The position numbers and the translations under genes are program-made. This document shows positions 963-18,911 of a stretch of 64,000 nucleotides of DNA, in pieces. The stretch is taken from NCBI RefSeq assembly GCF_057098645.1, contig NZ_CM169472.1; one strand, 5' to 3'. The notes below the pieces were generated by a model that was not told the origin of the DNA, ran no database searches, and saw only the letters and a list, made by a program, of their open reading frames with translations. Each line of letters opens with the position of its first letter. Position 1 is the first letter of the stretch.

Positions 963-1127
963 GCCTTATCTCCACCTCTTCGCGTCATTACGCGATATTC
1001 ATTAAAGTGGCGAAAGCATGACAGCAATCACAAAAAAATGAAAATAACAAAAAGAGAAAACACTTTTGCCATTTTGCTAACAAACAGGAAGGAGATGCGA
1101 GGGAGAACGCGCTCCCTCGAGAGGAAA

Positions 1128-1217
1128 TCAGTGCAGCGCGGCAGTCAAACCCACGGCTACGATCAAACCGAGGACGATAATCGTTGTTACCAGTGAAAAT
1201 TTAAGGTCGGTGCTCAT
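1128..1217 (-). CDS. ynhF: 29-aa hydrophobic small membrane protein (MSTDLKFSLVTTIIVLGLIVAVGLTAALH)
   Basis: Short minus-strand ORF with an AAGGAG Shine-Dalgarno about 7 nt upstream of the ATG; single predicted TM helix; matches my memory of K-12 small protein YnhF. Confidence 0.55.
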   Translation of the reverse strand: MSTDLKFSLVTTIIVLGLIVAVGLTAALH

Positions 1218-1455
1218 CAAGTTTTCTCCTTTTTTATTACCACACAAAAAGTGATATTACGCATTTTTACACACTGTGATGAAAAAATCTCCCGTCATTT
1301 ATAATGATAAGTGTTTTTACCACTTCCCCTTTTCGTCAAGATCGGCCAAAATTCCACGCTTACACTATTTGCGTACTGGCCATTGACCCCTTCCTGACGC
1401 TCCGTGTCGTTTTTCCGGCGTACCGCAACACTTTTGTTGTGCGTAAGGTGTGTAA

Positions 1456-1471
1456 AGGCAAACGTTTACCT
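1456..1471. promoter_or_regulatory. PurR operator (PUR box) in purR 5' leader
   Basis: aGGCAAACGTTTACCt contains the GCAAACGTTT core of the PUR box; purR is known to be autoregulated. Confidence 0.55.
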
Positions 1472-1515
1472 TGCGATTTTGCAGGAGCTGAAGTTAGGGT
1501 CTGGAGTGAAATGGA

Positions 1516-17247: not shown

Positions 17248-17287
17248 TTACTGATTTAGTGTATGATGGTGTTTTTGAGGTGCTCCA

Positions 17288-17563
17288 GTGGCTTCTGTTT
17301 CTATCAGCTGTCCCTCCTGTTCAGCTACTGACGGGGTGGTGCGTAACGGCAAAAGCACCGCCGGACATCAGCGCTATCTCTGCTCTCACTGCCGTAAAAC
17401 ATGGCAACTGCAGTTCACTTACACCGCTTCTCAACCCGGTACGCACCAGAAAATCATTGATATGGCCATGAATGGCGTTGGATGCCGGGCAACCGCCCGC
17501 ATTATGGGCGTTGGCCTCAACACGATTTTCCGCCATTTAAAAAACTCAGGCCGCAGTCGGTAA
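17288..17563 (+). CDS. insA: IS1 InsA
   Basis: 91-aa [42 protein letters not shown]... Confidence 0.95.
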
Positions 17564-17985
17564 CCTCGCGCATACAGCCGGGCAGTGACGTCATCGTCTG
17601 CGCGGAAATGGACGAACAGTGGGGATACGTCGGGGCTAAATCGCGCCAGCGCTGGCTGTTTTACGCGTATGACAGGCTCCGGAAGACGGTTGTTGCGCAC
17701 GTATTCGGTGAACGCACTATGGCGACGCTGGGGCGTCTTATGAGCCTGCTGTCACCCTTTGACGTGGTGATATGGATGACGGATGGCTGGCCGCTGTATG
17801 AATCCCGCCTGAAGGGAAAGCTGCACGTAATCAGCAAGCGATATACGCAGCGAATTGAGCGGCATAACCTGAATCTGAGGCAGCACCTGGCACGGCTGGG
17901 ACGGAAGTCGCTGTCGTTCTCAAAATCGGTGGAGCTGCATGACAAAGTCATCGGGCATTATCTGAACATAAAACACTATCAATAA
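17482..17985 (+). CDS. insB: IS1 InsB reading frame (expressed as InsAB' by -1 frameshift)
   Basis: InsB frame ...[21 protein letters not shown]...; A6C slippery motif AAAAAAC at 17539-17545. Confidence 0.9.
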
Positions 17986-18133
17986 GTTGGAGTCATTACC
18001 TACGCTGCTGACTCTGTCCCCAACACCAGATATTTTCCCTAACCCGATAGTGTATGAGAAAAGATTTAACGCCGATAAACTAATCCTTTATGGTTAGGAG
18101 AAAAAATAATGTGGTTATTCTGGGCTCTTAACA

Positions 18134-18147
18134 TTGATCATTATCAA
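18134..18147. promoter_or_regulatory. FNR box (TTGAT-N4-ATCAA), probable remnant of the ydhY operon promoter
   Basis: Perfect TTGATcattATCAA; the ydhYVWXUT operon is established as FNR-activated. Confidence 0.55.
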
Positions 18148-18387
18148 TTAAAATTACAAAGCAAGAAATTATAAGTGAACTGATATTTATTATCATTTGA
18201 AATAAATTTAACTTAAGCGACAATTATTTGTGACGGTCATTGCAGAAAATAAAAATAATATTATCGCTATAAATTAAAATACATACCGAAATTCGTATAA
18301 TTTCAGCAGTTGTTATTTAGAATGATTAACTGGACCGCAACTGAAGCAAGAATATCAGGATGAAGCTTATCGCCTCATCCTGAATGG

Positions 18388-18597
18388 TCATTTTACCAGT
18401 GCGTTAATGACGGTTTCCATCGCCTGCTTTTCCAGCTCACTGCGCTGAATGCGTTTATTGGCTAATGCTGTACGTAATACGCCTGCGATAACAATATGCT
18501 TTGGTTCCTGCCCCAGATCGCGCATTTCCAGCACAACTTTACCGACAACTCTGCACATTTCTCGGTACAGTTCATCCTCTTTTGTCCGATTTCCCAT
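18388..18597 (-). CDS. ydhZ: Small protein YdhZ (FumD)
   Basis: 69-aa ORF MGNRTKEDELYREMCRVVGKVVLEMRDLGQEPKH... Confidence 0.85.
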   Translation of the reverse strand: MGNRTKEDELYREMCRVVGKVVLEMRDLGQEPKHIVIAGVLRTALANKRIQRSELEKQAMETVINALVK

Positions 18598-18911
18598 TCT
18601 TTATACCTATTTATCATGCCAACTATCAGCATATATCAATCTAACCAATTAAACAAAAATCAAACAAAATCAGACAAATAACGCGATAAATTATTTTAAC
18701 TGTAGCAATTGAGCGATGATGTATTTATACACCGGATGAACTTTCACTTATCTTCACAGTGACAACCCCGGCACCAGACGTTGCGCAAACAGCGAAGTTT
18801 TTGCGTAACCTTTTCCCTGGAACGTTAAATCTTTGATAACAATTTATTGTCTAACAAGTTGTATATTTTTTGAAACGCTGTTTTTGTTTTCCTTTTGGAT
18901 TAATTTCAGCG

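What the first reader, a model, noticed from the sequence alone, without database searches (positions are those of the whole stretch)
1128..1217. 29-codon hydrophobic ORF with a consensus Shine-Dalgarno between ydhP and purR
MSTDLKFSLVTTIIVLGLIVAVGLTAALH is a single-TM micro-protein with an AAGGAG ribosome-binding site. Such genes are easy to miss in automated annotation. It matches my memory of YnhF.
Basis: partly seen in the sequence, partly recalled or inferred. Interest (0 to 1): 0.3.

Follow-up and report, generated by a model that had tools for sequence, protein, structure and literature searches.

The report
cydH (ynhF), small oxidase subunit gene
The 29-codon ORF is real and is the known E. 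coli gene cydH (formerly ynhF), which encodes a one-helix membrane peptide already seen in solved structures as the fourth subunit of the cytochrome bd-I respiratory oxidase, so the finding is correct but ordinary.

Summary
On the minus strand, window 1217..1128 encodes MSTDLKFSLVTTIIVLGLIVAVGLTAALH plus a TGA stop. AAGGAG lies 8 nt upstream of the ATG. The gene sits between ydhP and purR.

The peptide is 100% identical to chain H of PDB 6RKO (YnhF/CydH, cytochrome bd-I). It scores 50.2 bits against NCBIfam NF033411 (cutoff 30). RefSeq annotates it as cydH.

I anchored on purR in 80 Enterobacteriaceae species. All 80 keep an ATG, exactly 29 codons and a stop, 287-304 nt upstream of purR and divergent from it. 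Variation is concentrated at third codon positions. pN/pS is 0.22 in frame, against 1.33 and 1.47 in the shifted frames.

Published cryo-EM and mass spectrometry place the formyl-Met peptide on CydA, where it shields heme b595.

It misses the strand, the newer name and the known role.

One side result: Rfam's "sRNA" family STnc550 covers this ORF and the whole cydH-purR intergenic region. Its consensus structure shows no covariation support in my alignment.

Novelty: already known. Interest: low.

The parts
1128..1217 (-). cydH (ynhF) coding sequence: ATG 1217-1215, 29 codons, TGA 1130-1128. It encodes MSTDLKFSLVTTIIVLGLIVAVGLTAALH.
   Evidence: translation. (100% identical to PDB 6RKO chain H). 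(NF033411, 50.2 bits against a cutoff of 30). (RefSeq cydH annotation). (80 of 80 species keep it; pN/pS 0.22).
1226..1231 (-). Shine-Dalgarno AAGGAG, 8 nt upstream of the ATG.
   Evidence: sequence. (a GGAG core is kept in most of the 80 species).
1263..1271 (-). Candidate extended -10 promoter element, TG-n-AAAAAT (TGTAAAAAT in the window). Inferred, not shown.
   Evidence: in 81 sequences this block is nearly invariant, and the 'n' position switches freely between T and C. The simple two-hexamer promoter scan found nothing on this strand. No transcription start data were available to me.
1283..1290 (-). Conserved AGATTTTT block upstream of the candidate -10. Function unknown; possibly a regulator or UP-like element.
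   Evidence: nearly invariant across Enterobacteriaceae.
1098..1119 (-). GC-rich hairpin CGAGGGAG-CGCGTT-CTCCCTCG, starting 9 nt after the stop codon. Probably a 3'-end or terminator hairpin, but it lacks a clear U tract in E. coli.
   Evidence: a hairpin is present in nearly all species with differing but complementary stems. Mean MFE is -16.7 against -8.1 for shuffles, and z < -2 in 73 of 79. Only 8 of 79 have TTTT after the stem.
1125..1515 (-). Span matched by Rfam RF02081 'STnc550 sRNA'. It covers the cydH ORF, its SD, and the entire cydH-purR intergenic region.
   Evidence: 396.5 bits, full-length match. (no covariation support for the Rfam consensus structure on 81 sequences).

Best explanation
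This is cydH (ynhF, b4602; also called cydY), a free-standing small gene. It lies away from the cydABX operon, between ydhP and purR, and is divergent from purR. It is translated from the ATG at 1217 using the AAGGAG Shine-Dalgarno. The product is a 29-residue peptide that keeps its N-formyl-methionine and is almost entirely one transmembrane helix: a short polar head (MSTDLK), a hydrophobic stretch from about S8 to L28, and a C-terminal His. Shown by others: the peptide is a stoichiometric fourth subunit of E. coli cytochrome bd-I. It sits in a cleft of CydA formed by TM1 and TM8 or TM9 (papers differ on the helix number), on the side opposite CydX, and it covers heme b595. Inferred from those structures: it blocks the oxygen or ligand entry route used by the Geobacillus enzyme. 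The same pocket binds menaquinone in mycobacterial bd oxidases. Oxygen would therefore reach heme d only through the narrow CydB channel. Shown here: the gene evolves as a protein-coding sequence under purifying selection in every Enterobacteriaceae species sampled, always at the same place next to purR. Inferred here: transcription comes from a nearby extended -10 promoter (TGnAAAAAT) and ends at a conserved GC hairpin just after the stop codon.
For: Identity: one search finds 29/29 identity to 6RKO chain H, with the same sequence in 8 PDB entries. One search gives 50.2 bits against NF033411 (cutoff 30). Searches show RefSeq annotates cydH between ydhP and purR, and the region is present in 5425 of 5426 complete E. 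coli genomes. One search shows the exact sequence on at least 1000 contigs, named YnhF/CydH. Coding selection: one search finds the ORF in 80 of 80 species, 287-304 nt from purR. One search finds ATG in 80 of 80, 90 nt in 80 of 80, a stop in 80 of 80, and entropy by codon position of 0.49, 0.29 and 1.30. One search gives pN/pS of 0.22 (JC dN/dS 0.14) in frame, against 1.33 and 1.47 in the shifted frames. One search shows M1, L5, T11, T12, L16, I19, V20 and A26 are invariant. Protein existence and role, from the literature: PMC6853902 reports cryo-EM density identified by MS as YnhF, production at low oxygen, retained fMet, and blocking of the channel to heme b595. PMC8951039, PMC8585947 (absent from bd-II) and PMC8413341 (the same pocket holds MK-9 in M. 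tuberculosis) agree. PMC12529367 detected the intact protein by top-down MS with 100% coverage and a formylated Met.
Against: Nothing argues against the identification. The gaps concern function. None of the papers I could read reports a cydH deletion phenotype, so the 'blocking' role remains a structural inference. The promoter and terminator assignments are my inferences from conservation alone. Rfam files the same stretch as an sRNA. A two-hybrid screen recovered CydH with RNase E, but its authors attribute that to generic TM-helix contacts.
Confidence: 0.97

Rival explanations
1. The locus is a non-coding small RNA (Rfam STnc550), and the ORF is incidental.
For:: RF02081 'Enterobacterial sRNA STnc550' matches window 1515..1125 on the same strand at 396.5 bits over its full length.
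Against: The last ~90 positions of the model are the cydH codons, with the lower-case (variable) consensus letters falling mostly at third codon positions, and the model includes the SD. Selection is frame-specific. The protein has been seen by cryo-EM and MS. The Rfam consensus structure shows no covariation above shuffles or slid controls on 81 sequences: 13 pairs with double changes against 13.1 expected. Its best helix is the invariant PurR operator palindrome. The likeliest reconciliation is that STnc550 is the cydH mRNA, or simply the conserved intergenic DNA. I could not read the paper that defined STnc550.
Confidence: 0.02
2. The real product is longer, starting either at the in-frame TTG at 1247 (39 aa, as listed by the ORF finder) or at the TTG directly before the ATG (30 aa).
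For: One search lists the 39-aa TTG ORF. One database member carries that N-terminal extension (P0014). The TTG at codon -1 is kept in nearly all species.
Against: In at least 49 of the 80 species an in-frame stop lies 4-6 codons upstream of the ATG, so the 39-aa form cannot be conserved. The AAGGAG would fall inside that longer ORF. The deposited chain and the top-down MS proteoform are the 29-residue fMet-Ser-Thr form. The conserved TTG may simply be spacer sequence.
Confidence: 0.02
3. It is a chance ORF, or the real gene is the overlapping plus-strand ORF 1038..1196 (52 aa).
For: The antisense frame is stop-free across the cydH region in 79 of 80 species.
Against: That openness follows from composition. 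Stops in that antisense frame require sense codons TAY or CAN, which are rare in a hydrophobic helix. The antisense ORF has no conserved start or length: it is absent in 16 species and ranges from 20 to 110 aa in the rest. The sense ORF is invariant in length and start.
Confidence: 0.005

Closest known systems
CydH / CydY / YnhF of E. coli cytochrome bd-I (PDB 6RKO chain H; NCBIfam NF033411)
   Same: Identical 29-residue sequence, the same position between ydhP and purR, and the same SD and start codon. It is this gene.
   Different: Nothing differs.
CydX (YbgT), with AppX and CydS: the other single-helix subunits of bd oxidases
   Same: Small one-helix peptides that bind CydA/AppC and were missed by early annotation. 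CydX is also part of bd-I.
   Different: I detected no sequence relationship: the NCBIfam scan returned only NF033411. CydX is encoded in the cydABX operon, binds the opposite face of CydA near heme b558, and is needed for assembly or stability. CydH is encoded elsewhere and covers heme b595.
Rfam RF02081 STnc550 (Enterobacterial sRNA)
   Same: Same DNA and same strand: window 1515..1125, a full-length match at 396.5 bits.
   Different: It is filed as a non-coding sRNA with a consensus structure. Here the 3' quarter is a protein-coding sequence under purifying selection, and the structure is not supported by covariation.

Membership tests
CydH/YnhF (NCBIfam NF033411, cytochrome bd-I oxidase subunit CydH) | Sequence scores above the curated cutoff of the family model over its full length. 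| tested here: met
   50.2 bits against a cutoff of 30, residues 1-29 aligned to profile positions 1-29 of 29.
CydH/YnhF (NCBIfam NF033411, cytochrome bd-I oxidase subunit CydH) | Identity or similarity to the chain modelled as the fourth subunit in solved bd-I structures. | tested here: met
   29/29 identical to 6RKO chain H; the same sequence occurs in 8 entries and 12 chains.
CydH/YnhF (NCBIfam NF033411, cytochrome bd-I oxidase subunit CydH) | A peptide of about 29 residues consisting of a single hydrophobic transmembrane helix. | tested here: met
   Kyte-Doolittle mean is 1.63 over the whole peptide, and the best 19-residue window scores 2.53, starting at residue 10; length is 29 codons in 80 of 80 species.
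CydH/YnhF (NCBIfam NF033411, cytochrome bd-I oxidase subunit CydH) | Stand-alone gene outside the cyd operon, between ydhP and purR. | tested here: met
   Searches show the order sodB-ydhP-cydH-purR-punR. One search shows the position relative to purR is kept in 80 species.
CydH/YnhF (NCBIfam NF033411, cytochrome bd-I oxidase subunit CydH) | Evolves as a translated gene: purifying selection in frame, with conserved start and stop. | tested here: met
   pN/pS is 0.22 in frame against 1.33 and 1.47 off frame, and every third codon position varies.
CydH/YnhF (NCBIfam NF033411, cytochrome bd-I oxidase subunit CydH) | Physical association with CydA of cytochrome bd-I, and expression of the peptide. 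| not testable with these tools
   Taken from the literature only: PMC6853902, PMC8951039, PMC12529367.
Rfam RF02081 STnc550 sRNA | Match to the covariance model above the gathering score. | tested here: met
   396.5 bits against a gathering score of 48.
Rfam RF02081 STnc550 sRNA | A conserved RNA secondary structure supported by compensatory changes. | tested here: not met
   13 pairs show double changes against 13.1 in shuffles (322 of 500 shuffles reach the observed value). The covariation score of 0.062 is close to the slid controls (0.039-0.056). Caveat: the Rfam structure was mapped onto a MAFFT alignment, not onto a model-guided one.

The most novel reading that the evidence does not exclude
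The RNA catalogued as sRNA STnc550 could be a long-leader form of the cydH mRNA. It would start near the purR start codon and run antisense through the purR promoter, the purR 5' UTR and PurR operator O1. Transcription of the oxidase subunit gene and of the purine repressor gene would then interfere with each other, making it a dual-function coding and antisense RNA. My data neither show nor exclude this. They show only that the Rfam span is not supported as a structured RNA, and that a conserved promoter-like element lies close to the ORF.
Probability: 0.07. Interest if true: 0.45.

Novelty: already known. Interest (0 to 1): 0.08.

Why it matters
For the scan, this is a true positive. A tool-less reader found a 29-codon gene that classical annotation missed for decades. 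Biologically it adds nothing new: the gene, the protein, its structure and its partner complex are all published. Two small by-products may be useful. First, it is a clean comparative demonstration that so short a gene shows an unambiguous coding signature: 80 of 80 species, and pN/pS of 0.22 against more than 1.3 off frame. Second, the Rfam family STnc550 is largely this coding gene plus purR control DNA, which matters to anyone using Rfam hits to label 'non-coding' RNAs in enterobacterial genomes.

Tried and rejected
I therefore anchored on purR to collect syntenic loci. That sample reaches only Enterobacteriaceae (PurR at least 92% identical). The claim that homologues occur more widely in Proteobacteria rests on the literature and was not tested here.

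Pfam has no model for the peptide.

The original discovery and expression papers (Hemm et al. 2008 and 2010, recalled from memory) were not held. The cap on papers stopped me from reading the source of STnc550, and a text search for STnc550 found nothing.

On regulation, a published FNR ChIP peak is assigned to ynhF/purR. The only FNR-like sequence nearby has 2 mismatches and overlaps the start codon. That match class is no more frequent in the window than in shuffles (50 observed against 37 ± 7). The ArcA supplementary files do not mention the locus. I therefore assign no oxygen regulator.

The simple sigma-70 scan found no promoter on the cydH strand and did not call the post-stop hairpin a terminator.

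I considered and rejected the 39-aa TTG ORF and the antisense 52-aa ORF.

The Rfam STnc550 structure was tested and found unsupported.

Full report
**Observation**

Reading the window shows a minus-strand ORF with ATG at 1217-1215, 29 sense codons and TGA at 1130-1128. The hexamer AAGGAG lies at 1231-1226, leaving an 8-nt spacer (AAAACTTG) before the ATG.

The ORF lies between the 5' end of ydhP and purR. ydhP starts at 962 on the minus strand and is cut by the window start. purR occupies 1516-2541 on the plus strand and is divergent from the ORF. The strand was not stated.

As a chance check, I scanned the 64-kb window for ATG ORFs of 20-50 codons that have AGGAG or GGAGG 5-12 nt upstream and a TM-like hydropathy window. 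This ORF is the only one. Dinucleotide shuffles gave a mean of 0.11 per window.

**Identity**

The peptide is identical over all 29 residues to chain H of PDB 6RKO. That chain is deposited as 'Uncharacterized protein YnhF / Cytochrome bd-I ubiquinol oxidase CydH', and the same sequence occurs in 8 entries.

It scores 50.2 bits against NCBIfam NF033411 (small_mem_YnhF, product name cytochrome bd-I oxidase subunit CydH), whose cutoff is 30. Pfam has no model for it.

A 701-bp stretch around it is present in 5425 of 5426 complete E. coli genomes, and every listed hit carries the annotation 'cydH: cytochrome bd-I accessory subunit CydH' between ydhP and purR. The exact sequence is on at least 1000 contigs in the protein collection, under the names YnhF and CydH. 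Its 90% cluster consists of single-substitution variants.

**Independent test of coding function**

The homology tools refuse queries this short. I therefore fetched 80 purR loci, one per species, from Escherichia, Citrobacter, Salmonella, Enterobacter, Klebsiella, Raoultella, Kosakonia, Kluyvera, Leclercia, Lelliottia, Trabulsiella, Pluralibacter, Franconibacter and others.

- **Presence and position.** A CydH-like ORF is present in 80 of 80, always divergent from purR and 287-304 nt from it. Identity to E. coli falls as low as 48%.
- **Start, length and stop.** All 80 start with ATG, are exactly 90 nt long, and end in TGA (63) or TAA (17). There are 78 distinct DNA sequences but only 53 distinct proteins.
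- **Codon-position pattern.** Mean column entropy is 0.49, 0.29 and 1.30 for codon positions 1, 2 and 3. All 28 third positions vary.
- **Selection.** Nei-Gojobori pN/pS is 0.22 in frame (Jukes-Cantor dN/dS 0.14), against 1.33 and 1.47 in the two shifted frames.
- **Conserved residues.** M1, L5, T11, T12, L16, I19, V20 and A26 are invariant. K6, S8, L9, L18, T25, L28 and H29 are nearly so.

Its conservation part clearly fails: the ORF is conserved. I did not examine ribosome-profiling data, but translation is shown directly by mass spectrometry and cryo-EM.

**Alternatives at the same place**

- **The 39-aa TTG ORF.** The ORF finder lists a 39-aa ORF starting at TTG 1247. It is not conserved: in at least 49 of the 80 species an in-frame stop lies 4-6 codons upstream of the ATG.
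- **A 30-aa form.** An in-frame TTG directly before the ATG is kept almost everywhere. However, the deposited chain and the top-down MS proteoform begin with fMet-Ser-Thr.
- **The antisense ORF.** The plus-strand ORF at 1038..1196 has no conserved start or length. Its frame stays open because a hydrophobic helix rarely uses the codons (TAY, CAN) that would create antisense stops.

**What it does (from the literature)**

Thesseling et al. 2019 (PMC6853902) found an unexpected fourth single-helix subunit in the cryo-EM map of E. coli bd-I and identified it by LC-MS/MS as YnhF. They noted that it is made at low oxygen and retains its formyl-Met. They also noted that the gene lies between ydhP and purR rather than in cydABX, and proposed the name CydY. 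In their model the subunit blocks the spacious oxygen entry site that leads to heme b595, so that oxygen reaches heme d through a narrow channel from CydB.

Other papers add the following.

- The review PMC8951039 places CydH in the cleft between TM1 and TM9 of CydA, stabilised by a lipid. It says homologues occur in the proteobacterial clade together with long-Q-loop bd oxidases. (A later preprint, names the interface as helices 1 and 8.)
- bd-II lacks such a subunit (PMC8585947).
- In M. tuberculosis the equivalent pocket binds menaquinone-9 (PMC8413341).
- Newer E. coli structures again show the CydA-CydB-CydX-CydH heterotetramer.
- Top-down proteomics detected intact, formylated CydH with 100% sequence coverage (PMC12529367).

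The physical association and the existence of the protein are therefore shown. The 'blocking' function is a structural inference. I found no deletion phenotype in the papers I could read.

**Surroundings**

On the cydH strand, the 81-sequence alignment shows a nearly invariant TG-n-AAAAAT at 1271-1263, in which the 'n' position switches freely between T and C. That is the pattern expected of an extended -10 element. An invariant AGATTTTT lies at 1290-1283. I propose the first as the cydH promoter, but this is inference only. The two-hexamer scan found nothing on this strand, and I had no transcription start data.

Nine nt after the stop codon lies a GC hairpin (1119-1098). It recurs in nearly all species with different but complementary stems: mean MFE is -16.7 against -8.1 for shuffles, and z < -2 in 73 of 79. 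A U tract is usually missing, with TTTT present in only 8 of 79.

The two PurR operators of purR, which GalR also binds, are at 1456-1470 and 1544-1559 (sequences in PMC5110547).

A published FNR ChIP peak is assigned to ynhF/purR (PMC3688515 Table S5). The only FNR-like sequence close by, TTGATGAGCACCGA at 1220-1207, has two mismatches and overlaps the start codon. That match class is no more frequent in the window than in shuffles. The ArcA supplementary files do not mention the locus. I therefore do not assign an oxygen regulator.

**A side result**

Rfam family RF02081, 'Enterobacterial sRNA STnc550', matches window 1515..1125 on the cydH strand over its full length at 396.5 bits. The model's last ~90 positions are the cydH codons, and the SD is inside the model. 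Its most stable consensus helix is the PurR operator palindrome.

I mapped the Rfam consensus structure onto the 81-sequence alignment. It shows no covariation beyond the controls. Thirteen pairs have changes on both sides, against 13.1 in shuffles. The covariation score of 0.062 is close to the slid controls at 0.039-0.056. The caveat is that I used a MAFFT alignment rather than a model-guided one.

The conservation that sustains this 'sRNA' family is better explained by three things: a protein-coding gene, its promoter, and purR control DNA. Whether a long transcript really spans the region remains open. I could not read the paper that defined STnc550.

**Verdict**

The feature is the already known gene cydH/ynhF, so novelty is 'already known' and interest is low.

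The most novel reading still open is a long-leader cydH/STnc550 transcript antisense to the purR control region. I give it about 7%.

Noticed in passing
window 1125-1515 (minus strand): Rfam RF02081 'STnc550 sRNA' matches this span over its full length (396.5 bits). The span contains the cydH CDS, its SD, and the purR promoter and operator DNA. The Rfam consensus structure has no covariation support on 81 Enterobacteriaceae sequences, and its best helix is the PurR operator palindrome.
   Followed up: partly
window 1263-1271 and 1283-1290 (minus strand): Two nearly invariant blocks lie upstream of cydH. One is TG-n-AAAAAT, where the n position alternates freely between T and C, as expected for an extended -10. 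The other is AGATTTTT. In many species ATTTTTG and CAAAAAT form an inverted repeat spaced about 12-13 nt apart. No regulator could be assigned.
   Followed up: partly
window 1098-1119 (minus strand): A GC-rich hairpin just after the cydH stop codon is conserved across species with compensating stem changes. It usually lacks a U tract, so it is not a canonical intrinsic terminator. ydhP follows 136 nt later on the same strand.
   Followed up: partly
window 1207-1220: An FNR-like sequence, TTGATGAGCACCGA (2 mismatches to TTGAT-N4-ATCAA), overlaps the cydH start codon. A published FNR ChIP peak is assigned to ynhF/purR (PMC3688515 Table S5). By my own rough coordinate conversion, which relies on a purR coordinate recalled from memory, the peak centre falls near the 5' end of cydH.
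   Followed up: partly
window 1218-1220 (minus strand): An in-frame TTG directly precedes the ATG (TTGATG). It is kept in nearly all 80 species. It could be an alternative start, part of a DNA site, or just a preferred spacer.
   Followed up: no
window 1456-1470 and 1544-1559: The two known PurR autoregulatory operators of purR (AGGCAAACGTTTACC and GAGCAAACGTTTCCAC) are present. Both are also reported as GalR ChIP sites (PMC5110547). In Salmonella, MarA and RamA binding is reported for purR<>ynhF (PMC10268841).
   Followed up: partly
L082 (E. coli PCN061), locus 469-1166: An IS1A copy is inserted between ydhP and cydH in one E. coli genome. cydH and the intergenic region towards purR are left intact.
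   Followed up: yes
window 17259-18026 and 18134-18147: An IS1-like element (overlapping ORFs at 17288-17563 and 17482-17985) sits next to fumD (18388-18597, minus strand). A perfect FNR consensus, TTGATCATTATCAA, lies between them. In the closest annotated genome (14EC033) an IS1 interrupts the adjacent ferredoxin-like gene. Only 17 of 5426 E. coli genomes cover at least 80% of window 17700-18600, so this IS1 junction is uncommon.
   Followed up: partly
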